Origin: a virus
Strand: one strand, 5' to 3'
IMG/VR virus record: IMGVR_UViG_3300043786_000977
Location: 99,907-163,906 of that record
Length of the DNA stretch: 64,000 nucleotides
Below the pieces are notes generated by a model. That model saw only the letters and a list, made by a program, of their open reading frames with translations. It was not told where the DNA came from and did no database searches. Of the stretch, positions 5,889-61,937 are shown piece by piece; the first letter of the stretch is position 1, and each line of letters begins with the position of its first letter. The position numbers and the translations under genes are program-made.

Positions 5889-6283
5889 GTGATACATTAC
5901 ACGACACGGTGCATCTCTTTGATGTGGTTGAGGGCGATGGCCCTCTAATGGAACTTGATGTCACTGTCACCAGCGAGTTCGGAGAAGGTATTGAACTCAA
6001 ACCCCAAGGTTACGGTGACTACTGCTCTGTCATCGGCAACGGCTGTCCGGTGCTGTTAGAAGTGTGCCAAGGACGGCTACGGTTAGTGGTATGGGCTGAC
6101 ATTAATCAGGAAGAACCCACGCATTACATCGACCTAGAGGGCGCACGTGAGGATAAACGGTTACCGGAGTGTGTCTGTAGTATCTGTCACATGGCGTGCA
6201 ATCCTGTGAAAGCACATCTGCATCAGGGTGAATACATCGGCGATGAGTGTTGCTGGGACGATCGGCTGAAAGCAAGTGAGTAG
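5885..6283 (+). CDS. hypothetical Cys-rich protein
   Basis: 132 aa ORF with several Cys pairs. Confidence 0.5.
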   Translation: MSDTLHDTVHLFDVVEGDGPLMELDVTVTSEFGEGIELKPQGYGDYCSVIGNGCPVLLEVCQGRLRLVVWADINQEEPTHYIDLEGAREDKRLPECVCSICHMACNPVKAHLHQGEYIGDECCWDDRLKASE

Positions 6284-23818: not shown

Positions 23819-24106
23819 ATGTCTGCAGAGGCGATAGCGAACAGTATACTTGCTGGTAGATTTACGGATCAACTGGCCGCCGTTGAGGCCGTGTTGATGT
23901 ATTTCTACAACGTAGACCCTGTAGCTCAGATCAAAGGGTTATTCGACAATCCTGCACCGTCGTATATCGCCCAGTGGTCCCATCTCTACCGACAGGGTTT
24001 GACTGAGTGGTGGGGTCATCTTGACGTGGAACACAAACGTGCCTACGTCAGCGCGGCCCTAGATCGTTATGGTGCAGAAGCATACAAGCGCATAGGTGTT
24101 GCATGA
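23819..24106 (+). CDS. hypothetical protein
   Basis: 95 aa ORF. Confidence 0.5.
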   Translation: MSAEAIANSILAGRFTDQLAAVEAVLMYFYNVDPVAQIKGLFDNPAPSYIAQWSHLYRQGLTEWWGHLDVEHKRAYVSAALDRYGAEAYKRIGVA

Positions 24107-25152
24107 AGTTCTTATTTTCTGGGGCTAAAGAGCTACTCACGTCGGCCGTTGTGCCAGAAGACGTATTCGGTCCCGCCCTTGATGAAGTTGAGAGTGCTTA
24201 CCGTGCACTAGCAATGGTCACACATCCGGATAAGCACAAAGGCTCTGCCAAGGCCGCGGATGCGTTCCAACTCCTACAGACTTGGAAAGCCAAAGCTGAT
24301 ACCAAGATAGCCAACGGTACCTACGGAGATCGTAACGCTCAAGCCGCGGTCACGATCACACACGGAAAGCACACCTACGTGGTGACTAACCGTATCGACT
24401 CGGGTGACCTCGCTGAAGTGTACGGCGGCGTGGATGCTGCGAAGAAGCCCATCATCATCAAGGTTGTGCGTTCGCCTGCCAATAATGACCTGCTTGTCAA
24501 TGAGGCCAAGGTGCTGGAGGACATTCATGAACAGGCTGAAACTGCCGAGTCTGTGCTTCTGGTGCATTTGCCTAAACTGGTATCCGCGTTCCAACTCGTT
24601 GAGGGTGCGGCACGCCGTCAGGTGAATATCTTCGAGGTGATTCCGGACACCTGTACGCTGGCGGATGTCATCAAGGCCTATCCTGAGGGTATCGATCCCC
24701 GTGACGTGGCGTGGATGTTCAACCGTATTCTAGGCGGTTTGGTCCTGACACACAAATGTGGCTACGTGCACGGCGCACTGACACCAGACCATATACTGAT
24801 CGTACCCGAGACGCATAACGGTATACTGATCGATTGGAGCTACTCGGTGCCGGTCGGCGAGAAGATCAAGGCCATATCACCAAAGTGGAAAGGTTACTAT
24901 CCTGCTGAAGTACTGACGGGACATCCGTCAACCTTTGGTGTGGATCTGTACATGGCGGCACGTTGTGCCTCTGCGCTACTCGGTACACAACCGCGTCCGC
25001 GCTTGTTAGCTGGTTTTCTACGTGCGTGTTTGTTGGGTCCGCGGCATAGACCGCAGAACGCCCACGAGACGTTCGTAGAATTCAGAGAGTTGTTGGCTAC
25101 CCTGTTTGGTAAGCCGACGTTTCGTAGGTTCACATTATCAACAACAAAGTAG
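24103..25152 (+). CDS. J-domain (DnaJ-like) protein fused to a protein-kinase-like domain
   Basis: J-domain with HPD motif (YRALAMVTHPDKHKGSAKAADAFQLL). Downstream: kinase-like Gly-rich/Lys region (VYGGV...IIIKV), catalytic-loop-like HGALTPDHILIV, and DFG-like ILIDW. Confidence 0.6.
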   Translation: MKFLFSGAKELLTSAVVPEDVFGPALDEVESAYRALAMVTHPDKHKGSAKAADAFQLLQTWKAKADTKIANGTYGDRNAQAAVTITHGKHTYVVTNRIDSGDLAEVYGGVDAAKKPIIIKVVRSPANNDLLVNEAKVLEDIHEQAETAESVLLVHLPKLVSAFQLVEGAARRQVNIFEVIPDTCTLADVIKAYPEGIDPRDVAWMFNRILGGLVLTHKCGYVHGALTPDHILIVPETHNGILIDWSYSVPVGEKIKAISPKWKGYYPAEVLTGHPSTFGVDLYMAARCASALLGTQPRPRLLAGFLRACLLGPRHRPQNAHETFVEFRELLATLFGKPTFRRFTLSTTK

Positions 25153-28768: not shown

Positions 28769-29104
28769 TTCAGGTAAGTTCAGCGTATGTTGTAGTTGTT
28801 AGGGCGTCTGCCCATCATCGTCATCGTATTGCCTGAACAGCTTAAGCAATCCTTACGTGGAGTAGTGGGCTGACGTGCCTACAATAATACCAGATGTTGC
28901 AGGTTCAACTCCTGCCCCCGCTCCCATTAAACTATGGCGGGGTACCTCAATGGTTAGAGGGCTGGTACACTTCAAATTGAGCACGTTAGAGCTGCCAAAC
29001 ACAAACAAGGAGTCATGCTCTTGACTGAGCAGTTGTTATTTTATAACAATGACAAGGGGGGCCGGGAAAATAGGAACATCGACCCGGTCCCCCTTTCTTT
29101 TTTC
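28769..29104 (+). ncRNA. candidate ~330 nt ncRNA with a circularly permuted tRNA-like module (Y-RNA/YrlA-like tRNA mimic)
   Basis: No ORF, and the region is bounded by terminators at 28732-28768 and 29056-29104. Module at 28889..28966: accag (anticodon 3' strand), atgtt, T arm gcagg-ttcaact-cctgc, acceptor 3' ccccgct, c, CCA, 9 nt loop ttaaactat, acceptor 5' ggcgggg, ta, D arm cctc-aatggtta-gagg, g, ctggt (anticodon 5' strand). Every tRNA stem is complementary, but the gene order is permuted. Confidence 0.45.
29056..29104 (+). terminator. strong rho-independent terminator
   Basis: gggggg-ccggg ... cccgg-t-ccccc followed by tttcttttttcc. Confidence 0.7.
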
Positions 29105-30461: not shown

Positions 30462-30852
30462 GGGGCCATATTGGTTTCGACGTGATGACTTAGTTCGATA
30501 GATGCATGCCGTGGATTCTCGTTGGCCACGTTAATAAACGGGAAACAACCTTCAAAGGCCGAGCCAATGAAGCTGGCTGCTTAATCACAGCCATAGGAAC
30601 CCGGTGAGCGAGCAGTAACCGGCAGTACGACTCATACAGCTCTAAGCCTGTGAACCGGGCAAAAAGCGGGCGCTGACGAGCCTTGGGCGCAAGTCCAGAA
30701 CGGTCAGTGGTGGAGGGTGACGTAACCGTCGCCCCTGCACTCCTGGGTAGCACGCTTGGCGTATCCCAGGTTTTATTAACGCGAAGCAAGCATGTAGCAT
30801 TCTGTTGAGCGGTTTTTTACGGACGCGGGTTCGATTCCCGCTGGCTCCACCA
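30462..30852 (+). ncRNA. ssrA: tmRNA (SsrA), one-piece
   Basis: 5' ggggccatattggtttcgacg and 3' ggacgcgggttcgattcccgctggctccacca with a G3:U70 pair. Internal tag ORF ...GCC GAG CCA ATG AAG CTG GCT GCT TAA (ends ...MKLAA*). Confidence 0.85.
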
Positions 30853-31189
30853 TTTTGTATACGGTTGGTTAGGCTTCACCCTTAGCGGGGCGACTGTGGA
30901 ATCGGGATCAAGCCAGAGGTAGGGATACCAATGACGGCCTAGCTCGGTTATCCGTATACTTCATCTTTGGGTAAACGTAGTTAAAGGTCTGCGATCACAC
31001 TTTACAGACACTGCGGCCCGCAACGTTGAACGTCAGGTTATGTGTGCAGTGAATCGTTGCGGGTTACCCATCTTCTACGCTGAATGGTTTGCCCTTGTGG
31101 GCCTGTTGTTACGTTAACTGGTTATCCAGTCTACTCCGTCGTGCTTCGGCACGCATTATTACTAAAACAAGGAAATGAGGAGGTTTCAC

Positions 31190-32839
31190 ATGTTCGCATT
31201 TGTATTCGGTTGTCTGCTGATTGTTGCTGGATTGATCGCGCCACTGTTGCTCAGTGACGTGCTCAAACCAGTTGGGCGTACGCTGCTGGCGATTATCCTG
31301 GTGATGCTTGGCACGGTGGCAGTTGTGTTTTCGACATCGCTGTGGGTCAACACCAACTCTGGTGGTCTTATCACCAAGAAGTTTGGTGAAGGCCTGAAGG
31401 ATGGCCGGATCATCGCTGTTAGTGGTCAACGCGGGGTGCAGGCAGAGATTCTGTCGCCGGGTTGGTCGTTCGGATGGGCTCCGTGGCAGTACAATCTGGA
31501 GTCCGTACCTAATGTCGAGATCAAGGCAGGTACAGTCGGCGTAGTTACCGCCATGGATGGTGATCCATTACCCGCTGGCGAGATCTATGCCAAAGCCTGG
31601 GCGTCGCCTACGTTGATGCTGGATGCGAAAGCATTCCTCACCCAAGGTGGTCAGAAGGGTCCGCAACTTACCGTGCTGCCTCCGGGCCAGTATCGCTACA
31701 ATCCGAAACTGTTCCAGATTACACCGGCGCCGTGTATTGATGTGCCGATTGGATTCGCGGCTGGGGTTCGTGCAAATGCCGGCCTGCCCTTCAACGGTGA
31801 TGGTACTAACCAGACGGACGTCGTGAACGGTGTCCCGCTGGTACCGAATGGTTATAAAGGTTTGTGGTGTGAGCCACTCCTTCCCGGGCAGTATTACATG
31901 CATCCGCAGGCGTATCAGGTTATTTTGGTTCGGACCACCAAGCGCATGTACAGTTACACAGGCGTGGCGGGATCTGAAGCCAATACGGCCAGCAAGAAGG
32001 AACCGGAAGGCGATAATAGCATTCATGTGCGTTCGCAGGACTCGTTTGAGTTCCCTGTGGATGTGCGTGTAGCCGTGGCGATTTCGGCCAAGGACATACC
32101 CTATGTGGTGGCAAAGATTGCTGATCCGGACGCCGATTCAGACAAGAATGGCTTTGATAATATCGAGGAACGTGCCATTCTACCGTCAGTCAGAGCGATC
32201 CTGCGGAATACGGCTGAGGGTAAGAAGGCCATGGATTACGTCAACTCCCGCTCGCAGGTCGAGAAGGAGGCTCTGGCACGCTTCACTGTGGACATGGCCA
32301 AAGATCGGCTCGAGGTCGAAGGTTTCTATCTGGCCGATATCGGACTCAGCCGTACTGCAGCCGGTAAGGAATTGCTGAAGACGCAGACCGACAAGGAGAT
32401 TGCGATGCAGCAGCAGGACATGTACATGAAACAGGTCTTGGCTGCGAACGAACGTGGCAAGCAGGTTGAGGCTGAAGAGAAGGCCAATCAGCAGAAGGGT
32501 ATCCAGGCGTCGCAGGCTGGTATCAAGATCGCGGAACAGGATGCTGAGGCTGCCAAGCGTCGGGCTGAAGGTGACGCGGCACAGGCCTTGGTCTACAAGG
32601 CCAAGATTGATGCCCTGGGTGGCCCGGAGGCGTTCACCAAGTTCGAAGTGACCAAGATGATCGTGGAGAAGATGGCAGACGCGCTTAGTACCTGGAAACC
32701 CGCATTGCCACAGACCGTGGTTATGGGCCAGGGCGGCGGTGCCAACGGATCCGTTGATGGTATCTTGGCCGGAATCCTGGGCCAGATGAACACGGCTGCA
32801 ATGAAGCCCGCCGTGGTAGCGCAACCCACAGGAAAGTAA
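31190..32839 (+). CDS. SPFH/band-7 (flotillin-like) membrane protein
   Basis: RBS GAGGAGG, N-terminal TM helix, and a long coiled-coil EA-rich C-terminus typical of flotillin/YqiK. Confidence 0.55.
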   Translation: MFAFVFGCLLIVAGLIAPLLLSDVLKPVGRTLLAIILVMLGTVAVVFSTSLWVNTNSGGLITKKFGEGLKDGRIIAVSGQRGVQAEILSPGWSFGWAPWQYNLESVPNVEIKAGTVGVVTAMDGDPLPAGEIYAKAWASPTLMLDAKAFLTQGGQKGPQLTVLPPGQYRYNPKLFQITPAPCIDVPIGFAAGVRANAGLPFNGDGTNQTDVVNGVPLVPNGYKGLWCEPLLPGQYYMHPQAYQVILVRTTKRMYSYTGVAGSEANTASKKEPEGDNSIHVRSQDSFEFPVDVRVAVAISAKDIPYVVAKIADPDADSDKNGFDNIEERAILPSVRAILRNTAEGKKAMDYVNSRSQVEKEALARFTVDMAKDRLEVEGFYLADIGLSRTAAGKELLKTQTDKEIAMQQQDMYMKQVLAANERGKQVEAEEKANQQKGIQASQAGIKIAEQDAEAAKRRAEGDAAQALVYKAKIDALGGPEAFTKFEVTKMIVEKMADALSTWKPALPQTVVMGQGGGANGSVDGILAGILGQMNTAAMKPAVVAQPTGK

Positions 32840-34443: not shown

Positions 34444-35082
34444 ATGGATGAGACGTTGATCGCCAACTACTGTAGTTTGGTAAAGCCGCAGGACACCGTC
34501 ATAATTGGTGGTGACTTCGCGTGGTATAACCATGACAAGTACTTGGCGCAGTTACCGGGTAAAAAGACACTTGTGTGGGGCAATCACGATAACATGCCCC
34601 TGTCGGCACAACGCAATTTTACACGCGTGGTCGGCAGCAGGGGACAACCGGGCATACTTGAGTTATCGATCAAGCCGTACATGTTGACGGTATGTCATTT
34701 CCCTTTGATGAGTTGGAATGCCTCATTCCACGGGAGTTGGCATGTCCACGGGCATTGTCACGGGCGGCTCGTCGAGCCGATGGATATGTTTCGTACAGAT
34801 CTAGGTGTTGATGTGACGGATTATTGTCCGGTCAATTTCGATGTAGTCGTGCGCAAGTTTGAAAATCGTAGGGCAGCATGGAGAGCACGACGCATTCGTT
34901 TGGCTGCAGAACACGCTGGTGAAGTGGCAATTGATGCCAGCATACCCAATCGCAACGAGAACAGAATACTAATTGCTCAATGGCAAAACGATGTAAAGGA
35001 AGGACGTATTTCTGGTGACTACCCGACCCGCTATCTGCGTAATGCACGCCTGCTGGTCGCAGAGGATCCAGATTCATTATGA
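34444..35082 (+). CDS. metallophosphoesterase
   Basis: IIGGDFAWYNHD ... VWGNHDN motifs. Confidence 0.6.
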   Translation: MDETLIANYCSLVKPQDTVIIGGDFAWYNHDKYLAQLPGKKTLVWGNHDNMPLSAQRNFTRVVGSRGQPGILELSIKPYMLTVCHFPLMSWNASFHGSWHVHGHCHGRLVEPMDMFRTDLGVDVTDYCPVNFDVVVRKFENRRAAWRARRIRLAAEHAGEVAIDASIPNRNENRILIAQWQNDVKEGRISGDYPTRYLRNARLLVAEDPDSL

Positions 35083-36110
35083 AAGTCACATTACTCGGTA
35101 CAGGCGGCATGTTTACACAACGTCTGTTTCATACAAACCTCTTAGTCCGAAGTCAGCAATCGGGCAATAGACACTGTTTGCTTGTTGACTGCGGTACTGA
35201 TATCAGATTCTCGCTGGCCTCGATAGGCCTGCATATGGCGGCCGTCGATGCCGTCTACATCACACATACGCATCCTGACCATGCAGGCGGGTTGCACTAT
35301 CTGGCGTATCATTCGCTTAGTCGTTATCAGCACGCGAAGCGCATCACACTATACGCAACGGCACCAATCTTGCGCGATATATGGGACATGATGCGTCCGT
35401 CGTGTGGGATTTACAACGGGCAGGTGCGGGGTTTGTCGGATTACTTCGACATCGTTACGGTACCCTATCCAGACGGTAACGCAATATGGCGGGACATTCT
35501 GCTGACGCCGATCGCGTGGGAACACATGACTACAGCCAGCGATATGCCACAGGACTGTAAGCCTGTGATGTTATCATACGGCCTTACGCTCTACGAACGG
35601 GATACCAACATTCGTATTCACTACACAGGTGACGTGGCGCCGACGCAACTAACAGCACTGCGTAAGTTTATCGCGCAGGATTACATCGATCTGGTGCTGG
35701 CCGATTGTTATACGGGACCAGGTTACTCAGGAGTTCCAGTCCACGTGACATACGAGGACTACGCACAACTGCCTGCAGCTGTGAAGGCGAAGATTCGACT
35801 CACACACTACGGCGACGAGGTTGTAAACAAGTACCCGGAGACCCGAGAAGGTCATCCGACGATTTGTCAGGCCTGGGCAGAACGGGCCGCCAAGGATGGT
35901 TTGTTATTCGCAAACATTCATGATACATACGATACATCAACCATGCGTCAAGTACTAGACGCACAAGTAAAGAAGGAGCAGCAGGATGTCAGACCCACTA
36001 CAGGAACCGGCCGAGATGTCGGACGCGATGTCACAGAGGCCAGATGTACCCATTGCGCCGCAGGACATGACACAACTGCCAAGCGCGGCCGCAGCGTCGA
36101 AACCATCTAA
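35079..36110 (+). CDS. MBL-fold hydrolase, RNase Z (tRNase Z / RNase BN)-like
   Basis: MKVTLLGTGG...LLVDCG...ITHTHPDHAGGL (HxHxDH), collinear with the RNase Z N-terminus. The C-terminal tail overlaps the next gene by 125 nt. Confidence 0.6.
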   Translation: MKVTLLGTGGMFTQRLFHTNLLVRSQQSGNRHCLLVDCGTDIRFSLASIGLHMAAVDAVYITHTHPDHAGGLHYLAYHSLSRYQHAKRITLYATAPILRDIWDMMRPSCGIYNGQVRGLSDYFDIVTVPYPDGNAIWRDILLTPIAWEHMTTASDMPQDCKPVMLSYGLTLYERDTNIRIHYTGDVAPTQLTALRKFIAQDYIDLVLADCYTGPGYSGVPVHVTYEDYAQLPAAVKAKIRLTHYGDEVVNKYPETREGHPTICQAWAERAAKDGLLFANIHDTYDTSTMRQVLDAQVKKEQQDVRPTTGTGRDVGRDVTEARCTHCAAGHDTTAKRGRSVETI

Positions 36111-46261: not shown

Positions 46262-47284
46262 ATGAAGACTAAAACGAAAATTGACAACTACATCAACCAT
46301 GTGTTGTTTGTGTTGGACGAAAGCGGTTCCATGGGGTCCCTGGCGGACGCAGTCGTACAGGTGTTTGATGCACAGGTTGCGCATCTGGCCAAGCGATCAC
46401 AAGAACTGGATCAGGAGACACGGGTAACGGTCGTGGTATTCAACGACTCGCAGTATACGCGCACGCTCATCTACGACAAGGATGTACTGCGGTTGCCCAG
46501 TCTGGCCGGTTACTATGTTCCGTACGGCGGGACGCCTTTGATTGACGCGACGCTGACTGCGGTGGCCGATCTACGTATGACGCCTGAGAAGCATGGTGAC
46601 CACGCCTTCCTGGGTTACGTCTTGACGGACGGGCAGGAGAACCGCAGCACTAACACGCCAGCGGCCTTGGCGAAGATGATCCGGGACCTCCCGGACAACT
46701 GGACACTGGCAGTGTTGGTACCCAACCAGTACGGCGTGCACGAAGCGAAGCGTTTCGGGTTCCCTGCTGACAATATCGCGATATGGGATGCTACAAGCGC
46801 CAAGGGTCTCGACGAGGCCGTCGCAAAGATCCGTACTACGACCGAGACTTTCATGCAGGGTCGTACCCAGGGTATCCGCGGTAGCCGCAGTATCTTCAAG
46901 GTCGACACTTCGAACCTCAAGCACAGCACAGTCAAGCAGGTCTTGGACAAGTTGCCTGCGACTGACTATTCGATCTGGGATGTGCGTACGGACGCCGAGA
47001 TTCGCGATTTCGTCGAGTCACGCACCAAACTCCCTTACAAGAAGGGGATGGCGTTTTACATGCTGACCAAACCCGAGATTGTGCAGGCGCGTAAGCGCGT
47101 AGCTGTTCACGAGAAAGCGACGGGCGCCGTGTACAGCGGCGATTCGGCGCGCCAGTTGATAGGGCTACCCGCGGACAAAGCGCGTGTGGTACCAGGTGAC
47201 TTCAGTGCCTACGATATCTTCATACAATCCACAAGTGTAAACAGACGTTTGCTCGGTGGTACCAAGTTGTTACTGATTAGTTAA
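46262..47284 (+). CDS. vWA domain protein
   Basis: MIDAS motif VLFVLDESGSMGS. 340 aa. Confidence 0.6.
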   Translation: MKTKTKIDNYINHVLFVLDESGSMGSLADAVVQVFDAQVAHLAKRSQELDQETRVTVVVFNDSQYTRTLIYDKDVLRLPSLAGYYVPYGGTPLIDATLTAVADLRMTPEKHGDHAFLGYVLTDGQENRSTNTPAALAKMIRDLPDNWTLAVLVPNQYGVHEAKRFGFPADNIAIWDATSAKGLDEAVAKIRTTTETFMQGRTQGIRGSRSIFKVDTSNLKHSTVKQVLDKLPATDYSIWDVRTDAEIRDFVESRTKLPYKKGMAFYMLTKPEIVQARKRVAVHEKATGAVYSGDSARQLIGLPADKARVVPGDFSAYDIFIQSTSVNRRLLGGTKLLLIS

Positions 47285-54829: not shown

Positions 54830-54904
54830 GGCGGTTATTGTTTAGTGGTAGAACGACAGATTGTGGATCTGTCCGCACGAGTTCGATTCTCGTTAACCGC
54901 CCCA
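54830..54904 (+). tRNA. tRNA-His (GTG) with G-1
   Basis: Extra 5' G pairs with the C73 discriminator. Anticodon stem acaga/tctgt with loop ttGTGga, CCA. Confidence 0.85.
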
Positions 54905-54937
54905 CCTGCCTTTCCCTCTTTAATACTTCGTGATACT

Positions 54938-55906
54938 ATGTACGTACAAATAACAACCAAATGCAATTTCGCCTGCGACCATTGTATGTTCTCGTGCCGA
55001 CCCGGCAAGGGTCAACACATGACCATGGATACCGTGCGGGCAACTGCGCGGTTCATTAGGTGGCAGGGTAACGAACACTTCTTTATCGGCGGCGGTGAAC
55101 CAACCCTCCATCCCAAGTTCTGGGATGTCGTCGATATCGTTAAGGACTGCAACGCTGACTGGGCAGAAGAGAATGGCTGCCCGCCTGTTCAGTTGGTTAC
55201 GAACGGCAGCAAGACCAAGACAGTGATGCGTCTGGTAGAGATGGCTGATAAAGACGAAGCCTCCGTGCGTTTGAGTCGTGATCAGTTTCATCTCAAGTAC
55301 CCGATCGACCCGAGCGTCATCGCAGCTTTTCCGAAGCATTCGCACTTGTCTATCGGTTCGTACATCCATAACGTAGTGAACACGGGCCGAGCCCAGCGTT
55401 CCGTTTGGGCTGCAAATCCACGACCCGGTTGTGACGCCTGTGGACCTGTCGTTACACCTAACGGAAAGATCTGGCGTTGCACTTGCCGTCAGGAATGCAT
55501 CGGTGATGTGTTCCGTGGTTACGACTGCGACTCAGAGTTGATCGACTACGACAGCGCAATCGGTTGTACTATCAGGGACGGTAAACTGGTCCGTGACCCC
55601 CGTAGCAATCTCTTAAGGCACAGGCACGAAATGGAAGCAGAAGGTTGGATCTTCAATCCAAACGTGTTTGAAGGCCAACTCGAATTTGATCTTAACAGCG
55701 AACTATTCAAGGATACGCACCATGGGACGAATAACAGCACTAGGACTGCAGGATCCAATCCTGAAGTTAACGTTGACGGAACAAATACGGATGCATCTGC
55801 AGGGGAACCATTACCCGCCGGTGTCCAAGGTGTTCGTGCCGCTTTGCGTGAAGGCAATACGATTTGCGAACCGGGGAGCGGGGGAACACAAGTTGCGATT
55901 GCCTGA
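54938..55906 (+). CDS. radical SAM domain protein
   Basis: MYVQITTKCNFACDHC (CxxxCxxC) and GGGEPTLHP. Start set downstream of tRNA-His. The C-terminal 60 aa are low-complexity and overlap ORF 55668..56000, so a frameshift is possible. Confidence 0.6.
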   Translation: MYVQITTKCNFACDHCMFSCRPGKGQHMTMDTVRATARFIRWQGNEHFFIGGGEPTLHPKFWDVVDIVKDCNADWAEENGCPPVQLVTNGSKTKTVMRLVEMADKDEASVRLSRDQFHLKYPIDPSVIAAFPKHSHLSIGSYIHNVVNTGRAQRSVWAANPRPGCDACGPVVTPNGKIWRCTCRQECIGDVFRGYDCDSELIDYDSAIGCTIRDGKLVRDPRSNLLRHRHEMEAEGWIFNPNVFEGQLEFDLNSELFKDTHHGTNNSTRTAGSNPEVNVDGTNTDASAGEPLPAGVQGVRAALREGNTICEPGSGGTQVAIA

Positions 55907-56353: not shown

Positions 56354-56487
56354 CGAAGCGTGGAATGCAGGAAAAAGGGAAGAAGGGTCAGCTGTGCATT
56401 AAGTGTGGCAAGGAGCGCGCTTCACGTACGGGCATGGGTGGCCGGTTACTCTGCAACAAGTGTTTCACAAAAGAATGTGGACTATAA
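56350..56487 (+). CDS. small zinc-ribbon protein (45 aa)
   Basis: GGAGGAG RBS. Contains CIKCGK...CNKCF. Confidence 0.4.
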   Translation: MTKRGMQEKGKKGQLCIKCGKERASRTGMGGRLLCNKCFTKECGL

Positions 56488-56488
56488 C

Positions 56489-57265
56489 ATGATATATCCA
56501 AATGACATTGTACCTGTCGAGGTACAGCAGGAGATCGGGCCGCCGTATGACTGGTGTGTCCTGTCAGGTTACACAGGCAGTCACGCGTACGGTACCTATG
56601 TCCCGCCTGAACACGAGTTCGGTACGGATGACGTAGACATAATGGGTGTGATGATCCCGCCGGTTGAGTATTACCTGGGGTTCCGCAAGATGGATCACTG
56701 TCTCTACCAGAAGGGTAAGTGGGATATCCTGCTTTACGAGTTCAGACATTTCGTTAGTCTGTTACTCAAGGGTAATCCAAACGTCATCGGTATGCTCTGG
56801 TTACGACCTGAGGACTACCTGATCAGAAGTCCAGCGATGGATGAACTAATTGCCAATCGACATCTGTTCTGCGGGAAGCATGTCTTCGACTCATTTCGTG
56901 GTTATGCCTCAGGCCAATTATATAAGATGCAGCATGCTGTACGTGAAGGGTACATGGGCGAGAAGCGGCGTAAACTCGTTGAGCGTTTCGGGTACGACGT
57001 AAAGAATGCTGCGCATATGATTCGGCTACTGCGTATGGGCCAGGAGTTCCTCAAGACTGGCACGTTACAGGTGTATCGTACAGACGACGCACAGCAGCTG
57101 ATCGAGATCAAGACAGGGCTGTGGCCGTTGGATCGTGTGATGGACTTGGCGCATGCTGAGTTTGATTGGTTGGATGCTGCCTATGCAGCAAGCACATTAC
57201 CTGAGAAACCGCAAACAGCGGAAGTTGAAGCAAGGGTGATTAGCATACTGAAAGGTCGTATATGA
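56489..57265 (+). CDS. nucleotidyltransferase (Pol-beta superfamily, MNT-like) domain protein
   Basis: GSHAYGTY...GTDDVDIMGV, the GS...DxD motif. Confidence 0.45.
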   Translation: MIYPNDIVPVEVQQEIGPPYDWCVLSGYTGSHAYGTYVPPEHEFGTDDVDIMGVMIPPVEYYLGFRKMDHCLYQKGKWDILLYEFRHFVSLLLKGNPNVIGMLWLRPEDYLIRSPAMDELIANRHLFCGKHVFDSFRGYASGQLYKMQHAVREGYMGEKRRKLVERFGYDVKNAAHMIRLLRMGQEFLKTGTLQVYRTDDAQQLIEIKTGLWPLDRVMDLAHAEFDWLDAAYAASTLPEKPQTAEVEARVISILKGRI

Positions 57266-57668: not shown

Positions 57669-58757
57669 ATGGATCAAGGTCTTAGTCAGGTTGCTATACA
57701 GGGAATCATTCGCCGTAAGATAGGAGATTGGCTGGAGTCGATTGACAACATGGAGTTGCGGCTCTTCCTGTCTGATAAAATCATCGTTACGGGCGGCGCG
57801 ATCGCATCGTTGCTTCGCGGGGAGAAGGTGAACGATTACGATGTCTACTTCACAACGCGGGAAGCAGCCACACGCGTAGCCAGTTATTACTTGGCACGTT
57901 TCGCAGCGAATCCGCCAAAGAGTATGCAGCAGTCACCCGTACGTATGTACGTGGATGATAAGTCAGATCCCGACCGTGTACGTATTGTTATCCAGTCGGC
58001 CGGTGTGATATCTACCGACGGTGATGGCGGCAAGTACGAGTACTTCGAAACGACACCGCCCGCGAATGCCGCAGATTACGTTGCTGACGTGGTAGCCCCG
58101 GTCGTGGATGAAGACGAACAGCGGCTTACCAACGAACTCAGGGACTCGACTACGGATGCCGGTATACCCGACAGTGATAATCCCGAGCTCATGCGCCTCG
58201 TCGAACAGGCAGCCACTGAGGACCTGCCGCCGATGGCGACAGGTCCAGGGGCCAAGGCAAAGAACAGGTATCGGCCGATCTTCCTGTCCGGTAATGCCAT
58301 CACCTTGAGCGACGAGATTCAGCTCATCATCAGGTTCTATGGCCCCGCGGAGGAACTCCACAAGAACTTCGATTTCGTCCACTGCACGAACTACTGGCAG
58401 TCAGAGATGCGTGTCGGCGCGAAGTTCGGGGGTACCCTGGTGGTAAACACGCCAGCCCTTATGAGCCTGATGTCCAAACGTCTGGGGTATATCGGTAGCC
58501 GGTATCCGTTATGCAGTTTGATCCGGACCCGTAAGTTCGTCCGGCGCGGTTGGACGGCGCCGGCCGGTGTGTTCATCAAGGCGATGCACCAGTGCCTGGC
58601 CCTGGACTGGAATAAAATCGAAACCTGGAGAGAACAGTTGACCGGGGTGGATACCGCCTACTTTGCTGAAATCATCGAGATCCTCAAGCGGGATCAGGCA
58701 GCAGGGAAGTCCATAGACTCGGCATACGTCGTTGCCTTAATCGATAGGTTAATTTAA
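57669..58757 (+). CDS. CCA-adding enzyme / poly(A) polymerase-family nucleotidyltransferase-like protein
   Basis: KIIVTGGAIASLLRGEKVNDYDVYF resembles the head motif of class II tRNA nucleotidyltransferases (LVGGAVRDLLLG...DIDI). Confidence 0.45.
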   Translation: MDQGLSQVAIQGIIRRKIGDWLESIDNMELRLFLSDKIIVTGGAIASLLRGEKVNDYDVYFTTREAATRVASYYLARFAANPPKSMQQSPVRMYVDDKSDPDRVRIVIQSAGVISTDGDGGKYEYFETTPPANAADYVADVVAPVVDEDEQRLTNELRDSTTDAGIPDSDNPELMRLVEQAATEDLPPMATGPGAKAKNRYRPIFLSGNAITLSDEIQLIIRFYGPAEELHKNFDFVHCTNYWQSEMRVGAKFGGTLVVNTPALMSLMSKRLGYIGSRYPLCSLIRTRKFVRRGWTAPAGVFIKAMHQCLALDWNKIETWREQLTGVDTAYFAEIIEILKRDQAAGKSIDSAYVVALIDRLI

Positions 58758-59381
58758 CGCGTCTTCGCGTTATAACATATTGTTTAAGGATAGCGTTAGC
58801 ATCCTGATGACCAGGGGTATAACCCCTTCATTTCAGGACCAGTGCACCCTGACAGGCAGGTTTCGAGCTGACCCCATGCGGCGGCCGAGTAGCTGTAGCC
58901 GTGGCGGTGCACTGGTCTCTGATCTGACACCAACCCCTTCCCCGAGGCTGTACACATTCAGTTTGACCCCTATACGGGGCTCGGGGAGTCCTCGCCCGGT
59001 TGGCCCGCAGGGGCTTACCACAATATGTGGAGCCGGGTTACTTTCCTAGGTGAGCGACTGATGGGAACCGCATCTTCCTGTATCGTGCGTGTTCCTGATC
59101 GGCAGTCGCTCACTCCCGGTTACCGCGGGGTTCGTCTCATACGTACTCCTCCCCGCGGGTAACCGGGCTCCTTCTCTTCCTCCCTGCCCCTCAGGGGTTT
59201 GACCACAATACGTGGGTGGGAGACGCTATTACACCGATGATCCCACGATCAAGCGACACCGTCGTGGGGGAGGTTGGGCCATTAGTTGGGCGGTCGATTG
59301 GTAGCGTTAACTGACCTCGACGCTGCTTAAAGTCACGGACCGTGAGGTCATTCTTTCCCTCTGTCAACGCTGTAAAAGGTG

Positions 59382-59411
59382 TTGACAAGGGTTCATGCCC
59401 TGTGTTTTAAT
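59382..59411 (+). promoter_or_regulatory. sigma70-like promoter (TTGACA-17-TGnTTTAAT)
   Basis: ttgaca at 59382, a 17 nt spacer, and extended -10 tgttttaat. A palindrome gtcaacgctgtaaaaggtgttgac lies immediately upstream. Confidence 0.5.
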
Positions 59412-59418
59412 ACACACG

Positions 59419-59753
59419 TTTACCCACTATAGGGCACCGATCTTTCATATTTTAACATGCGGATAGTAGGAGTCAGGCAGCAGCATAAACTACAGGACCT
59501 AGATGTCGTTGGTTCAAGTCCAACACCCTGCGCCAATACAGTTGCAGGGTTAGCTCAGTTGGTAGAGCACCAGGAAAAAACTGATTCTGTAATCCGCACC
59601 ATCTTCGAGGTTGTTAAGAGTGGCACAGCAAAAACTCGTCCTCACGGACATTGCTTTCCCAGCAAACCAGAGTCCACTCTGTATTTTTCATTTTAGCTTC
59701 GGACTGTAGAATTCGTACAGCAAACAACTACCTCCTGCATAAGGAGGTTTTCG
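59419..59753 (+). ncRNA. candidate ncRNA with a circularly permuted tRNA-like module (Y-RNA/YrlA-like tRNA mimic)
   Basis: Module at 59495..59571: T arm gttgg-ttcaagt-ccaac, acceptor 3' accctgc, g, CCA, 8 nt loop atacagtt, acceptor 5' gcagggt (7/7 complementary), ta, D arm gctc-agttggta-gagc, a, ccagg. Promoter upstream; candidate terminators at 59668-59697 and 59731-59753. Confidence 0.45.
59731..59753 (+). terminator. rho-independent terminator
   Basis: cctcct-gcata-aggagg followed by ttttcg. Confidence 0.45.
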
Positions 59754-59805
59754 CCCTCATATGCGAAAACTATATCGAATTCGTAGTCCTCTTTTTCTCA
59801 TCGTT

Positions 59806-60090
59806 CGTAAGGATAGCGCAGCAATCAATCGCCCTTCGGGGCACTAGCCTGTTAAGCTAACCACAGTCTATCCTGTGACCTTTCATTTTCGTACACTCTG
59901 TGACTTCAGCAACTATCGTAGGGATAGCGCAGCAATCAACCGCCCTTCGGGGCACTAGTTATTGGAACTAACCATAGCCTATCCCGTGACTTTTCACTTT
60001 TCAACGCACTCTGTGACTTAAGCGAGCACCGTAGGAATGAGTCGGCAGTCGGCCCTTAACCGGGCGCTACTTCGTCCGAAAGGATGCATG
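59806..60090 (+). repeat. tandem ~112 nt direct repeats (2.5 copies) encoding structured RNA elements
   Basis: Copies at 59806, 59917 and 60030. Each has a closing helix aggatag/ctatcct (copy 1) or gggatag/ctatccc (copy 2), i.e. compensatory A-U to G-C changes, plus a conserved gccc-UUCG-gggc tetraloop hairpin. Confidence 0.6.
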
Positions 60091-60264
60091 AAAAACTGTG
60101 GTACCGGGCACATATGTGTTAACGGGCCACGCGGTGTGATCATTGATTACGCACACTGATATAATAAAAGGTAATCCGTTGCGCACGAGTCGTTATCTTG
60201 GGCGGTCCCGCCGAGGGACTTAAATAACCGTGCAAGTATTCTGTGGTGCTAGCTTATCTGTTCT

Positions 60265-60417
60265 TGTTAAGGATGACGCAGCAAATATCACCCCGCAAGG
60301 GGCGATGGGTTCGATTCCCATAGAGCCCGTTAGGGCTTTGTCAATGGCGACAAATAAGTCATCCTGTACTTTGTTATGTAAGGCCTCGTCCGAGTGGACG
60401 GGGCCTTTGCCTTTTGT
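60265..60417 (+). ncRNA. structured sRNA of the same family, immediately upstream of the Ro60-like gene
   Basis: Shares the 5' aaggatgacgcagcaa / 3' gtcatcctgt closing helix with the tandem repeats. Has a GNRA hairpin cacccc-gcaa-ggggcg, a T-arm-like hairpin atggg-ttcgatt-cccat, and a terminator at 60382-60417. Confidence 0.45.
60382..60417 (+). terminator. rho-independent terminator
   Basis: ggcctcgtcc-gagt-ggacggggcc followed by tttgccttttgt. Confidence 0.6.
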
Positions 60418-60443
60418 AGACGACAACAATAAGGAGACGATGA

Positions 60444-61937
60444 ATGCGTAAGACAACGTCAATGATCAGAGGTCACAATTCAGATCCCTTGCACGCGCAC
60501 AGCGGGGATCATCACCTGGAGTTCTTCTCGAAGGCGGGTTCGCTCTTCGTGAAGGGCAAGGGTAAGAAAGGCGCCAGCTACTACGGTACCAGTTCCGAGA
60601 CGACAGCCCTGTCACTCTTCCAGCCCATGTGGATGTCGCCAGGCCTGGAGAACAAGACACTGGCCATGCAGTTGCTGTTCTGGTTACGTGATCCCCGCGG
60701 TGGCGCCGGCAATCGGTCGGGTTTCCGGGAAATCGTGCGCTGGTTGGCGCAGCAGCCTGAGACGTCGGTTGATCCGTCGGGTGCCACTTGGCTGGGTGTC
60801 AACCTGTTGCGGGTTCCGGAATGGGGACGCTGGGACGATCTGGCAGAACTGTACGGTACGTCACTCGAGCCGCTTGTCGCGGGCGTCTGGACAGAAGCGA
60901 TCATGCGGAAGGAGCACCTGGCTTGTAAGTGGGCCAAGGTTGATATGGTACCGCTGCAGCGCGCCCTGAAAATCAATGAGCGTGGGTTGCGGATGTTGAT
61001 CGTACCGCCCCGTGCCACGATCGTTGAGCGTGCTATGTGCGCGGGTGACTGGACTGCCGTGGACTACTCGAAGATTCCGAGTAAGGCGATGTCCATGTAC
61101 ACGAAGGCGTTCCGGATGCACGACAAGCCCCGGTTCGACGAGTACAAGGCGGCACTGGTGCGTGGGGATAAAGGCGTGAAGATTAACGCTAGTGTGTTGT
61201 TCCCGCACGACTGTGTGAAGCAGGCGAAGACTGGTGATCAGATCATCGCTGAAGCGCAGTTTAAAGCGTTGCCCGATTTCATCGGTGGCACGGATCGGCG
61301 TATCATCGTGTTGGCTGACCGGTCTGGTTCGATGGGTGCTATAGCGCAGGATACGATTACGAACGATAATGTGGCTGTGGCCTTGGCGCTGTATTGCAGC
61401 GATCGGCTGGGTCCGCAGAATCCGTTCTATCGGCAGTATCTGGAATTCCAGAGTACACCGTTCTGGGTGGATTGGAAAAACGAGACGTTTGTGCAAGCCT
61501 GTCGGTCCGGTCAAGGATTCGCGGGTAGCACGAACTTACAAGGGGCGCTTGACGCTATATTGAAGCAGGGCAAAGCTTGGAGAGTCCCTCCGGCACAGAT
61601 GCCTACGATGCTTCTGATCGTCAGCGATATGCAGTTCGATAACCACGTTACTGGGGGAACCCGGATGATAGCCTGTCACGGAACTGAACAGACTGTGGTT
61701 GAGAAATGTATGCAACAGTGGGAAGCTGCTGGTTATCAGCGGCCGACTATTGTTTTCTGGAATCTTGCAGGCTACGCAGGGCAACCTGCGCAAGCACAGA
61801 CACCGAACACTGCCCTTGTGTCCGGTTTCTCACCTGCCATACTGAAATCCATACTGTCTGGTAAAGAAGTTTTACCCCGAGAGGTCATGCTCCGGGCAAT
61901 AGCTAAATATCAGGTAGAGGTCCCCTGCGTGGGGTAA
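60444..61937 (+). CDS. Ro60/Rsr-like protein (TROVE-like N-terminal region with C-terminal vWA/MIDAS domain)
   Basis: 497 aa, RBS AAGGAGACGA. C-terminal vWA with IIVLADRSGSMG (DxSxS), AGSTNL and VSDMQF, which parallels human Ro60 LAVDVSASM / AGGTDCS / FTDNET. N-terminal GASYYGTS resembles Ro60 GGTYY. Lies directly downstream of the Y-RNA-like sRNAs. Confidence 0.5.
   Translation: MRKTTSMIRGHNSDPLHAHSGDHHLEFFSKAGSLFVKGKGKKGASYYGTSSETTALSLFQPMWMSPGLENKTLAMQLLFWLRDPRGGAGNRSGFREIVRWLAQQPETSVDPSGATWLGVNLLRVPEWGRWDDLAELYGTSLEPLVAGVWTEAIMRKEHLACKWAKVDMVPLQRALKINERGLRMLIVPPRATIVERAMCAGDWTAVDYSKIPSKAMSMYTKAFRMHDKPRFDEYKAALVRGDKGVKINASVLFPHDCVKQAKTGDQIIAEAQFKALPDFIGGTDRRIIVLADRSGSMGAIAQDTITNDNVAVALALYCSDRLGPQNPFYRQYLEFQSTPFWVDWKNETFVQACRSGQGFAGSTNLQGALDAILKQGKAWRVPPAQMPTMLLIVSDMQFDNHVTGGTRMIACHGTEQTVVEKCMQQWEAAGYQRPTIVFWNLAGYAGQPAQAQTPNTALVSGFSPAILKSILSGKEVLPREVMLRAIAKYQVEVPCVG

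What the first reader, a model, noticed from the sequence alone, without database searches (positions are those of the whole stretch)
58760..61937. Candidate phage Ro60 (Rsr/TROVE) ribonucleoprotein system: Ro60-like gene preceded by a ~1.7 kb ncRNA locus with a permuted tRNA-like module
The gene at 60444..61937 has the C-terminal vWA/MIDAS arrangement (DRSGSM ... AGSTNL ... VSDMQF) and the overall size of Ro60/Rsr proteins. Immediately upstream is a 1.7 kb region with no ORF but a promoter, terminators and several structured RNAs. One element (59495..59571) contains every tRNA stem in circularly permuted order: anticodon 3' strand, T arm, acceptor 3' strand with CCA, an 8 nt loop, acceptor 5' strand, D arm, anticodon 5' strand. 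The acceptor pairing is 7/7 and the T and D arms are canonical. This is the architecture reported for bacterial YrlA-type Y RNAs, whose tRNA-mimic domain has the acceptor stem closed by a loop and which bind Ro60. A phage carrying both an Ro60-like protein and tRNA-mimic Y-RNA-like RNAs would be a notable non-coding RNA surveillance or decay module.
Basis: partly seen in the sequence, partly recalled or inferred. Interest (0 to 1): 0.92.

Follow-up and report, generated by a model that had tools for sequence, protein, structure and literature searches.

The report
Phage Ro60-like protein with modular RNA array
A large phage encodes a ring-shaped Ro60-like RNA-binding protein just downstream of a tandem array of about seven small RNAs, and the shared "handle" of these RNAs also matches the enigmatic Class I RNAs of social amoebae, so a testable protein partner can now be proposed for those RNAs.

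Summary

The element at 59495-59574 is a permuted tRNA-like module (T arm, closed 7-bp acceptor with GCCA, D arm). It gives a sub-threshold Rfam YrlA hit, and its stems covary in relatives.

Each clear unit has a closing stem, a single-stranded CAGCAA next to the 5' strand, a variable insert, and a 3' (C)YGU. The inserts are tRNA-elbow mimics, anticodon-loop-like hairpins or other hairpins.

This handle recurs beside DUF2828 genes across diverse phages: 99 units lie in the 500 nt upstream on the gene strand, against 1 on the other strand.

The handle matches Dictyostelium Class I RNAs, which were reported as unique to dictyostelids. A model built only from amoeba sequences finds 27 gene-strand hits beside phage DUF2828 genes, the best at 37 bits.

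Verdict: a new variant of the Ro60/Y-RNA system. Protein-RNA binding and function are inferred, not shown.

The parts
58775..59380 (+). GC-rich, highly structured non-coding stretch between the upstream gene and the RNA array. Its role is unknown and it is not clearly part of the system.
   Evidence: MFE -268 kcal/mol, z -6.4 on the + strand against z -4.0 on the - strand. No Rfam match. Absent from the closest relative L164, whose Ro-like protein is 93% identical. The equivalent 1-kb stretch in L156 is also structured, z -4.5.
59381..59412 (+). Promoter-like site for the RNA array: TTGACA, 17-nt spacer, TTTAAT (inferred).
   Evidence: Read from the sequence. L156 has a similar TTGACG-17-TTTAAT ahead of its array. 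The consensus scan did not list it because the -10 hexamer lacks A at position 2.
59459..59597 (+). Unit 1, a long Y-like RNA. It has an outer helix GCGGAU/AUCCGC, closing stem P1 GGAGUCAG/CUGAUUCU, CAGCAG next to the 5' strand, a permuted tRNA-like core (T arm, 7-bp acceptor with encoded GCCA and an 8-nt loop, D arm), an A-rich linker and a 3' CUGU.
   Evidence: Rfam YrlA 32.8 bits. Model R1 92.4 bits. Fold z -4.0. Conserved with stem changes in L164.
59617..59682 (+). Unit 2, a short unit of 66 nt: P1 AGAGUGG/CCACUCU, CA-CAGCAA, two small hairpins, 3' CUGU.
   Evidence: Unit rule. R1 28.8 bits. Fold z -2.5. Conserved in L164.
59701..59789 (+). Unit 3: outer helix GGACUG/(U)AGUCC, P1 GAAUUCG/CGAAUUC, UA-CAGCAA, two hairpins, 3' CGU.
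   Evidence: Fold z -6.3. In L164 the stems are kept while the hairpin loops change.
59810..59876 (+). Unit 4, a short unit of 67 nt: P1 AGGAUAG/CUAUCCU, CG-CAGCAA, a UUCG hairpin, a hairpin UAGC-CUGUUAA-GCUA whose 7-nt loop equals a tRNA-Asn anticodon loop, and 3' CCUGU.
   Evidence: 98-nt direct repeat shared with unit 5. The Dictyostelid model R2 gives only 8.4 bits.
59921..59987 (+). Unit 5, a paralogue of unit 4 (80% identical): P1 GGGAUAG/CUAUCCC, CG-CAGCAA, 3' CCGU.
   Evidence: Fold z -2.2.
60030..60160 (+). Possible degenerate unit 6. It starts GUAGGAAUGAG like the others, but has GGCAGUCGG in place of CAGCAA and only a weak closing stem.
   Evidence: Read from the sequence. Fold not better than shuffles, z -1.1. 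Not found by R1. Low confidence.
60270..60367 (+). Unit 7, a long Y-like RNA: P1 AGGAUGAC/GUCAUCCU, G-CAGCAA, a GCAA-capped hairpin, T arm AUGGG-UUCGAUU-CCCAU, an acceptor-like stem closed by GUUA, a degenerate D arm, 3' CCUGU.
   Evidence: R1 60.2 bits. Fold z -4.4. A homologous last unit occurs in L156 at 5825-5935.
60380..60417 (+). Intrinsic terminator between the array and the protein gene: a 12-bp GC-rich hairpin followed by a U run.
   Evidence: z -4.2. Conserved in L164 and present at the same place in L156.
60444..61937 (+). Ro60-like protein of 497 aa: an N-terminal helical repeat domain plus a C-terminal vWA domain with a complete MIDAS motif. It belongs to the DUF2828/DUF7788 family (PHROG 850).

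Best explanation
The locus encodes a divergent Ro60-type ribonucleoprotein system. A promoter near 59381 drives a polycistronic array of six clear small RNAs and one degenerate candidate (59459-60367). The array ends at a terminator (60380-60417) that is partly read through into the gene for a Ro60-fold protein (60444-61937).

Every clear RNA has the same handle: a 6-8 bp helix joining its 5' and 3' ends, a single-stranded (N0-3)CAGCAA next to the 5' strand, an A-rich 3' linker and a 3' (C)YGU. By analogy with the stem plus CGAA module of Y RNAs, this handle is the docking site for the Ro-like protein.

The variable insert is the working end. In units 1 and 7 it is a circularly permuted tRNA elbow (T arm, closed acceptor stem, D arm). 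In unit 4 it includes an anticodon-loop look-alike. In the other units it is made of other hairpins.

The RNAs would act as interchangeable adaptors or gates. They would tether the ring protein, through tRNA mimicry and the protein's MIDAS face, to tRNA-handling enzymes, exoribonucleases or host tRNA-targeting defence nucleases during infection. The locus sits at the end of the phage's tRNA/tmRNA island, next to an RlaP RNA-repair nucleotidyltransferase.

Shown: the protein fold, the RNA structures with covariation, and the genomic linkage. Inferred: transcription and processing, protein-RNA binding, and the cellular role.
For: Protein fold:
- AF2 model pLDDT 90.
- The MIDAS residues are invariant.

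RNA structure:
- YrlA hit.
- All four helices of the long units covary: 97% of cells paired against 70% in shuffles, 17 of 23 pairs with compensatory changes.
- All 68 matches of model R1 lie on the gene strand.

Linkage of the handle to the gene:
- In 159 loci, 238 rule-defined units lie on the gene strand, against 65 on the opposite strand and 39 in shuffles.
- 99 units lie in the 500 nt just upstream of the gene, against 1 on the other strand.
- 40 of 71 IMG/VR loci and 29 of 55 GTDB loci have at least one unit by a strict rule, against 3 and 3 on the other strand.
- This holds across proteins only 25-45% identical.
- Cultured phages also carry units: LeBron has 3 units plus a terminator just after gp53; Listeria phage AG20 has a promoter and 3 units before the gene, with RtcB 1.2 kb downstream; Felix-O1-like EC6 also has units.

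Architecture and inserts:
- Canonical Y RNAs have the same layout, a terminal stem flanking a loop that carries the CGAA motif (PMC4201824; PMC12135203).
- Inserts are enriched in tRNA-type 7-nt loops: 26 YU-NNN-RN loops against 0.3 expected, 17 of them CU-NNN-A(A/C).
- RNA-repair neighbours: RlaP at 56360-57265, and RtcB in AG20.
Against: - No experiment and no transcript data. Binding is inferred from adjacency and analogy.
- There is no sequence-level link to TROVE.
- About 45% of family loci have no unit by the strict rule. This could mean motif variants, such as Aeh1's UGCAAUAA, or a looser association.
- The units' position immediately upstream of the gene also fits a cis-acting leader.
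- The promoter is non-canonical.
- Unit 6 and the stretch 60160-60263 are not explained.
- The functional proposal (adaptor or decoy for tRNA-acting enzymes) has no direct support.
Confidence: 0.65

Rival explanations
1. The repeated stem-CAGCAA-CUGU elements are cis-acting leader or operator sites in the 5' UTR of the DUF2828 mRNA. For example, they could be autoregulatory binding sites or attenuators, rather than stand-alone small RNAs.
For: Most units lie within 500 nt upstream of the gene on the same strand. In the window the only strong terminator sits between the last unit and the start codon, which fits attenuation.
Against: - In LeBron, L099, L028, L006, L025, L074, L150 and EC6, units lie downstream of the gene.
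- Arrays reach about 13 units over 2.6 kb.
- Unit number changes between close relatives without loss of the gene.
- Units carry elaborate tRNA-like inserts that covary.
- The equivalent amoeba RNAs are abundant free-standing transcripts (PMC7919456).
Confidence: 0.1
2. The RNAs are real trans-acting tRNA decoys or regulators, but they work with another partner or alone, for example with RlaP, a Gad2-like nucleotidyltransferase or host factors. On this view the adjacent vWA/MIDAS protein is not their binding partner.
For: RlaP and a Gad2-like gene are neighbours in this clade. In Dictyostelium the only proven direct Class I binder is an RRM protein (PMC7919456).
Against: The association was measured relative to the DUF2828 gene across very different phages whose other neighbours differ. 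The protein has the fold of the one protein family known to bind such stem-plus-loop RNAs.
Confidence: 0.15
3. The region is debris of the neighbouring tRNA island: rearranged or decaying tRNA genes and repeats with no function of their own.
For: 26 tRNAs and a tmRNA lie just upstream, at 23000-54904. The elements contain tRNA arms.
Against: - The permuted order and the non-tRNA handle are conserved, with compensatory changes, across distant phages.
- Strand and position are tied to the DUF2828 gene.
- Short units have no tRNA arms at all.
Confidence: 0.03

Closest known systems
Bacterial Ro60 (Rsr) with YrlA/YrlB Y RNAs (Salmonella, M. smegmatis; Rfam RF02553; Chen et al. 2014, PMC4201824)
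   Same: - A ring-fold protein with a vWA/MIDAS domain.
- Several small RNAs encoded within a few kb on the same strand.
- The RNA is a terminal stem with a conserved loop motif, plus a tRNA-like domain in the order T arm, closed acceptor, D arm.
- Some acceptor stems are 7 bp with an encoded NCCA. In M. smegmatis YrlA that form is cut by RNase P.
- Linked to RNA-repair genes (RtcB).
   Different: - The protein has no TROVE sequence match and belongs to DUF2828/DUF7788.
- The RNA scores 32.8 bits against a gathering score of 69.
- The conserved motif is CAGCAA in the loop next to the stem, not GNCGAA.
- There is a conserved 3' CUGU.
- Arrays have 7 to about 13 units, against 1-4.
- Many units carry no tRNA elbow. 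Some of those have anticodon-loop-like hairpins.
Thermus phage phiLo phiRo60 with Yrl1/Yrl2 (Hu et al. 2025, PMC12135203; PDB 9l5y)
   Different: phiRo60 is a TROVE-annotated protein and its RNAs use the CGAA motif. It has only two RNAs, and no tRNA-like inserts or arrays were reported.
Dictyostelid Class I RNAs (Rfam RF01414; Aspegren 2004; Avesson 2011; Kjellin et al. 2021, PMC7919456)
   Same: [quoted passage not shown]
- A conserved 5' G.
- A single-stranded ...ACAGCAA motif directly 3' of the 5' strand.
- An A-rich stretch before the 3' strand, and a 3' CUGU.
- Length about 45-65 nt, a variable interior and many paralogous copies.
- Some amoeba members carry a T-arm hairpin (DpuR-22, ppa_can_99) or a T arm followed by a GCAA-capped stem (asu_can_20), like the phage long units.
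- A covariance model built only from 35 amoeba sequences finds 27 gene-strand hits beside phage DUF2828 genes, up to 37.3 bits.
   Different: - The amoeba RNAs are eukaryotic nuclear genes with their own DUSE promoter, dispersed rather than arrayed.
- U3 of the 11-nt motif is not conserved in phages.
- The window's own, GC-richer units score only 8.4 bits or less with the amoeba model.
- No protein of the DUF2828 family has been linked to Class I RNAs. The known direct binder is the RRM protein Rnp1A/CIBP.
Phage genes annotated 'Ro-like RNA binding protein' or 'RNA-binding protein' (PHROG 850; mycobacteriophage cluster L such as LeBron gp53; Felix-O1-like, Listeria P100-like and KVP40-like phages)
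   Same: The same protein family: 693 GenBank phage records match, and PHROG 850 matches at E 6.5e-83.
   Different: These are name-only annotations. No associated RNAs are annotated in the records examined.

Membership tests
Ro60 / TROVE protein family | Sequence match to the TROVE domain (Pfam PF05731) | tested here: not met
   No TROVE hit for the window protein at E <= 0.01, nor for any of 41 family members at E <= 10. PDB sequence and profile searches do not reach Ro60.
Ro60 / TROVE protein family | Fold: helical (HEAT-like) repeat domain closed by a C-terminal vWA domain | tested here: met
Ro60 / TROVE protein family | MIDAS motif (DxSxS ... T ... D) in the vWA domain | tested here: met
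   D292, S294, S296, T363 and D395 are invariant in 41 sequences.
Ro60 / TROVE protein family | Binds Y RNAs on the outer surface and misfolded RNA ends in the central hole | not testable with these tools
   Needs RIP, EMSA or a structure of the complex.
YrlA Y RNA (Rfam RF02553) | Score at or above Rfam's gathering threshold (69 bits) | tested here: not met
   32.8 bits at 59480-59593 and 38.3 bits in L001. The outer stems of the model are poorly matched.
YrlA Y RNA (Rfam RF02553) | tRNA-like domain in the order T arm, closed acceptor stem, D arm, enclosed by a stem formed from the 5' and 3' parts | tested here: met
   Sequence, fold and covariation in 17 homologues.
YrlA Y RNA (Rfam RF02553) | GNCGAA(N0-1)G motif near the 5' end, the presumed Ro60 contact | tested here: not met
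   The conserved motif in this position is (N0-3)CAGCAA. The last A is present in 85% of 148 units that were selected for CAGCA[AG]. No CGAA occurs at a consistent place.
YrlA Y RNA (Rfam RF02553) | Encoded within 4 kb of, and on the same strand as, the Ro60 orthologue | tested here: met
   Units lie 77-985 nt upstream of the Ro-like gene on the same strand. The same holds across the family.
Dictyostelid Class I RNA (Rfam RF01414) | Short stem joining the 5' and 3' ends, with compensatory changes and a conserved 5' G pairing with the C of the 3' CUGU | tested here: met
   In P1, 5 of 7 pairs covary and one G-C pair is invariant. The tail is G in 83% and U in 79% of 148 units, and P1 ends in ...CCU. 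The window units end CUGU, CCUGU, CCGU or UCGU.
Dictyostelid Class I RNA (Rfam RF01414) | 11-nt motif CCUUACAGCAA adjacent to the 5' strand, with U3, C6, C9, A10 and A11 near-invariant | tested here: inconclusive
   CAGCAA (positions 6-11) is present in six window units, as CAGCAG in unit 1. The three or four bases before it vary (CA, UA, CG, G), so U3 is not conserved.
Dictyostelid Class I RNA (Rfam RF01414) | Length 42-65 nt with a variable interior | tested here: inconclusive
   Predicted short units 2, 4 and 5 are 66-67 nt, and the median of short phage units is about 55-65 nt. RNA ends are not mapped, and units 1, 3 and 7 are longer.
Dictyostelid Class I RNA (Rfam RF01414) | Significant score with a Class I covariance model | tested here: inconclusive
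   Window units score at most 8.4 bits, E 0.23. Units of other phage loci of the same family score up to 37.3 bits, E 9e-6, with 27 of 28 hits on the gene strand. With Rfam RF01414, Listeria phage AG20 gives 22.8 and 20.1 bits, below the gathering score of 41.5. A wider Rfam scan of six loci returned none.
Dictyostelid Class I RNA (Rfam RF01414) | DUSE promoter about 60 nt upstream of each gene | not tested
   This is a eukaryotic promoter element and is not expected in a phage. Here the units are arrayed behind one bacterial-type promoter-like site.

The most novel reading that the evidence does not exclude
The phage stem-CAGCAA-CUGU RNAs and the Class I RNAs of dictyostelid social amoebae are one RNA family, and their conserved partner is the DUF2828/DUF7788 Ro60-fold protein. 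If so, Class I RNAs are functional analogues of Y RNAs: modular adaptors for a Ro-like ring. They have been of unknown function for 20 years and were reported as unique to Dictyostelia and tied to multicellularity. They would have a phage or bacterial counterpart or origin, and the uncharacterised protein pulled down with DdR-21 (DDB_G0281243), or another amoeba DUF2828 homologue, would be their Ro-like partner. In phages, arrays of such RNAs displaying tRNA elbows and anticodon loops would be a programmable set of tRNA mimics used in the conflict over host tRNA-targeting defences.
Probability: 0.4. Interest if true: 0.93.

Novelty: new variant of a known kind. Interest (0 to 1): 0.85.

Why it matters
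Ro60/Y-RNA particles are conserved from bacteria to humans, yet how Y RNAs specify function is still unclear. This locus has four implications.

1. A second, sequence-divergent branch of Ro60-fold proteins carries its own RNA handle. The branch is very common in phages (693 GenBank records), including Felix-O1-like, Listeria P100-like, mycobacteriophage cluster L and T4-like phages.
2. The RNAs are modular and arrayed. Their interchangeable inserts mimic different parts of tRNA, which suggests a general adaptor logic that can be tested in cultured phages.
3. The system sits with tRNA, tmRNA and RNA-repair genes, so it bears on how large phages defend translation against host anticodon nucleases.
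4. The handle matches Dictyostelium Class I RNAs. This gives a concrete, testable hypothesis for the partner and mechanism of an abundant eukaryotic ncRNA class of unknown function, and it challenges the claim that the class is unique to dictyostelids.

Tried and rejected
- Nucleotide megablast of the locus against 50,697 phage records found no match.
- Rfam at gathering thresholds found nothing in 58760-60444.
- A PDB sequence search and a profile search of the protein found no Ro60 hit. NCBIfam found nothing.
- A general outer helix (P0) beyond P1 is seen clearly in L156 and in window units 1 and 3, but not across all 148 units. It was dropped as a family feature.
- Rfam E-value scans of six small loci did not return Class I hits, probably because of filters and the larger search space.
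- The Dictyostelid model on the window's own units gave weak scores. I therefore do not claim the window units are Class I members by score. The link runs through AT-richer members of the same phage family.
- I tried to establish whether Dictyostelium has a DUF2828 protein, or whether DDB_G0281243 is one. The AFDB library was unavailable, Avesson 2011 is not held, a full-text search for the gene id found only the preprint, and motif searches in the truncated proteome files of the Kjellin supplement found nothing relevant.
- Burroughs & Aravind 2016 and Sim et al. 2020 are not held. I therefore could not check whether DUF2828 was already placed in their 'Rot/TROVE' group.
- Reading the region as coding is not supported. 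The ORFs of 40-89 aa within 58780-60462 overlap the structured RNAs; they were not themselves searched against family libraries.

Full report
**Setting.** The window looks like part of a large phage genome. It carries 26 tRNA genes and a tmRNA, all on the + strand between 23000 and 54904. It also carries an anti-Pycsar Apyc1 homologue, an SPFH/Band-7 protein and nucleotide-metabolism genes. The finding lies at the distal end of the tRNA island. Its upstream neighbours are a radical-SAM gene (54845-55906), an RlaP RNA-repair nucleotidyltransferase (56360-57265; PF10127, E 5.6e-16) and a 362-aa gene (57669-58757) whose orthologues hit Pfam Gad2. No phage record in the collection is close at the DNA level.

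**The protein.**
- Pfam gives DUF2828 (E 2.7e-18) and DUF7788 (E 9.5e-28), but no TROVE. TROVE does not appear even at E <= 10 in any of 41 aligned family members. Sequence searches of the PDB do not reach Ro60.
- PHROG 850, named 'RNA-binding protein', matches at E 6.5e-83.
- A 41-sequence alignment gave an AlphaFold2 model with mean pLDDT 90 and pTM 0.90.
- Foldseek against the PDB returns Ro60/Rsr as the first nine hits over the full length, with E 6e-7 to 4e-5 and TM up to 0.62.
- The MIDAS residues are invariant.

So the protein has the Ro60 architecture without detectable TROVE sequence similarity. The family is large. More than 1,452 relatives were scored. At least 564 IMG/VR stretches encode one. 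693 GenBank phage records match, and there it is annotated 'Ro-like RNA binding protein' or 'RNA-binding protein'. Carriers include mycobacteriophage cluster L, Felix-O1-like, Listeria P100-like, KVP40-like and Campylobacter phages.

**The permuted tRNA-like element.**
- Rfam's YrlA model matches 59480-59593 at 32.8 bits, with E 9e-5 for the 2-kb search and a gathering score of 69.
- Orthologous loci were recovered by exact-protein look-up: L001 (protein 73% identical), L156 (62%) and L157 (54%). Each has a 2.4-3.7 kb gene-free stretch before the gene, and L001 has a YrlA-like hit there at 38.3 bits.
- I aligned 17 such elements from the window and ten loci with MAFFT. RNAalifold recovered a 7-bp closing stem, the T arm, a 7-bp closed acceptor stem and the D arm, with 17 of 23 pairs showing compensatory changes.
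- Pair counting gave 97.1% paired cells, against 70.3% in shuffles (0 of 500 reached the observed value) and 30-44% when partners were slid.
- Two acceptor forms occur. One is closed by a tetraloop (GCAA, GUAA, GUUA). The other, as in window unit 1, has an encoded NCCA followed by a longer loop. In M. smegmatis YrlA that second form is cut by RNase P and given CCA (PMC4201824).
- In the closest relative, L164, the unit-1 core also contains an intact anticodon-like arm with loop CUGAUGA. There the whole tRNA is present, permuted at position 26/27.

**An array with a common handle.** Reading L156 showed about 13 consecutive units with the same ends, and the window has the same pattern.
- Each unit starts ...A|AGGNUGN(N), followed by 0-3 nt and CAGCAA. 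It ends with an A-rich stretch, the complementary strand ...NCANCCU, and GU(U).
- In 148 non-redundant units, the base before the stem is A in 82%. The closing stem is 6-8 bp in 129 of the 148, and the tail is G in 83% and U in 79%. These units were selected for CAGCA[AG], so that part of the motif is fixed by construction. Among them the last A is present in 85%.
- The window units are 59459-59597, 59617-59682, 59701-59789, 59810-59876, 59921-59987 and 60270-60367, plus a degenerate candidate at 60030-60160. Units 4 and 5 are a 98-nt tandem duplication.
- A terminator follows at 60380-60417, 27 nt before the start codon.
- The array is dynamic. L164, whose protein is 93% identical, has only four units, and its last unit is a recombinant of the window's units 4 and 7.

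**Linkage to the gene.** I applied a deliberately strict rule: an uninterrupted stem of at least 6 bp with at most one G-U pair, 0-3 nt, CAGCA[AG], and N?GU after the 3' strand.
- It finds 238 units on the gene strand of 159 loci (1.22 Mb), against 65 on the other strand and 39 in shuffled sequence.
- 99 units fall in the 500 nt just upstream of the gene and 30 in the next 500 nt, against 1 and 2 on the opposite strand.
- Among loci with enough flank, 40 of 71 IMG/VR and 29 of 55 GTDB loci have at least one unit, against 3 and 3 on the other strand.
- A covariance model of the long units (R1) gave 68 matches at E <= 0.01 in 0.74 Mb. All are on the gene strand. A few are ordinary tandem tRNAs.
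- Cultured phages have units too. LeBron has three units and a terminator right after gp53. Listeria phage AG20 has a promoter and three units right before the gene, with RtcB 1.2 kb downstream. EC6 has several units after the gene.
- None of these RNAs is annotated in the records examined.

**What the inserts look like.** Among 103 units of 130 nt or less, 46 of 134 predicted hairpins have 7-nt loops, against about 8 in shuffles. Of those, 26 loops fit YU-NNN-RN, against 0.3 expected. Nine are T loops and 17 are CU-NNN-A(A/C), the anticodon-loop signature, with varied 'anticodons' such as CAU, GUU, GAA and UUU. Window unit 4 has UAGC-CUGUUAA-GCUA. The same hairpin frame with other triplets occurs in L004, L005 and L020.

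**Comparison with canonical Y RNAs.** The layout is the same: a terminal stem, an adjacent loop motif, and an effector module that may mimic tRNA (PMC4201824; PMC12135203). The motif differs (CAGCAA instead of GNCGAA/CGAA), and so do the 3' CUGU and the scale of the arrays.

**The Class I connection.** An Rfam E-value scan of the AG20 units returned Dicty_Class_I_RNA (RF01414) over the full model, at 22.8 and 20.1 bits. Its consensus, GaUcuC-CUUACAGCAAU...GagAuC-UG, is the phage handle.
- Kjellin et al. 2021 define Class I RNAs by five features: a stem joining the ends with compensatory changes, an invariant 5' G pairing with the C of a 3' CUGU, an 11-nt motif ending CAGCAA, a variable interior, and a length of 42-65 nt. 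They conclude that the class is unique to Dictyostelia.
- I took curated sequences from their supplement. I aligned 35 from six species and built a model from them alone.
- Searching the window and 99 phage or MAG loci (0.9 Mb, both strands) gave 28 matches at E <= 1. Of these, 27 are on the gene strand, and all 27 lie within about 1.2 kb of the DUF2828 gene.
- The best scores are 37.3 bits (E 9e-6), 33.4, 31.9 and 31.2. These values fall inside the range of scores listed for accepted amoeba members in that paper's tables.
- In cultured phages all seven matches are on the gene strand; AG20 scores 23 bits with E 0.001.
- Some amoeba members carry a T-arm hairpin (DpuR-22, ppa_can_99) or a T arm plus a GCAA-capped stem (asu_can_20), like the phage long units.
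- Limits: the window's own GC-richer units score at most 8.4 bits with the amoeba model, and a wider Rfam scan missed the family.
- I could not verify that dictyostelids encode a DUF2828 protein. DUF2828 does occur in eukaryotes: an Aeh1 annotation note points to an Arabidopsis homologue, and plant papers mention the domain.
- The DdR-21 pull-down recovered GuaB, NdkC, Rnp1A/CIBP and the uncharacterised DDB_G0281243. Whether that protein is the Ro-like one is the key open test.

**Mechanism.** The best-supported model is a Ro60-type RNP. The handle would dock the RNA on the protein, and the insert would select partners or substrates. The location of the locus and its neighbours point to tRNA and RNA repair or protection during infection. 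Fold, RNA structure and linkage are shown. Expression, binding and role are inferred. The rival readings (cis-acting leader, protein-independent decoys, tRNA debris) are weighed in their own sections.

**Remaining unknowns in the interval.** The stretch 58775-59380 is strongly structured (z -6.4) and favours the + strand. It has no Rfam match and is absent from the closest relative. Unit 6 and the stretch 60160-60263 do not fold better than shuffles.

Noticed in passing
window 58775-59380: A 600-nt GC-rich non-coding stretch folds far better than shuffles (z -6.4 on the + strand, -4.0 on the - strand). It has no Rfam match and is missing from the closest relative L164, so it looks like an insertion or a lineage-specific large structured RNA. 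L156 has a 1-kb structured stretch (z -4.5) at the same position.
   Followed up: partly
window 28830-29000 (+): A second permuted tRNA-like element lies far from the Ro-like gene. It has a T arm (GCAGG-UUCAACU-CCUGC), a closed acceptor (CCCCGCU + CCCA ... GGCGGGG) and a D arm (CCUC-AAUGGUUA-GAGG). It is preceded by ...CAGCUUAAGCAAUCC. Model R1 gives 33.6 bits for positions 28-110, and ARAGORN calls no tRNA there.
   Followed up: partly
window 30462-30852 and 31175-32839: A phage tmRNA is followed about 320 nt later by a 554-aa SPFH/Band-7 protein (PF01145, E 1.7e-10). From my own recollection, SPFH proteins have been proposed as RNA-repair scaffolds paired with a tRNA-like RNA, so the adjacency may be meaningful.
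   Followed up: no
window 35079-36110: A homologue of the anti-Pycsar protein Apyc1 (PF23023, E 7.5e-20) sits inside the tRNA island, which indicates an anti-defence gene cluster.
   Followed up: no
window 24103-25152 and 46262-47284: A DnaJ-domain plus protein-kinase fusion protein, and a separate 340-aa vWA-domain protein. Both lie among the tRNA genes.
   Followed up: no
window 57669-58757: The gene just upstream of the RNA locus matches PHROG 4400 (unknown function). Its orthologues in L001 and L157 hit Pfam Gad2 (PF26128), a family named after a Gabija anti-defence protein. The order RlaP, this gene, RNA array, Ro-like gene is only partly conserved.
   Followed up: partly
L156 4812-4934: One unit of the related array carries the tRNA arms in the non-permuted order (D arm, anticodon-like arm, T arm) with no acceptor stem. 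ARAGORN miscalls it as tRNA-SeC. The same handle therefore hosts different tRNA topologies.
   Followed up: partly
Dictyostelid Class I RNAs DdR-66/67 and DpuR-27 to DpuR-30 (Kjellin 2021, supplement file 48): The long amoeba Class I RNAs share an insert, ...UAGGUGGGAG...GUGAAAUACCACC..., which looks like a conserved large-subunit rRNA segment. It may be another case of the handle displaying a mimic of a cellular RNA.
   Followed up: no
L159 (Aeromonas phage Aeh1) 2818-4398 and 7065-7282: The annotated start of the Aeh1 family member overlaps tk by 130 nt and is probably too far upstream. A 122-nt feature annotated 'tRNA-Val' overlaps an R1 match that has a variant handle, UGCAAUAA.
   Followed up: no
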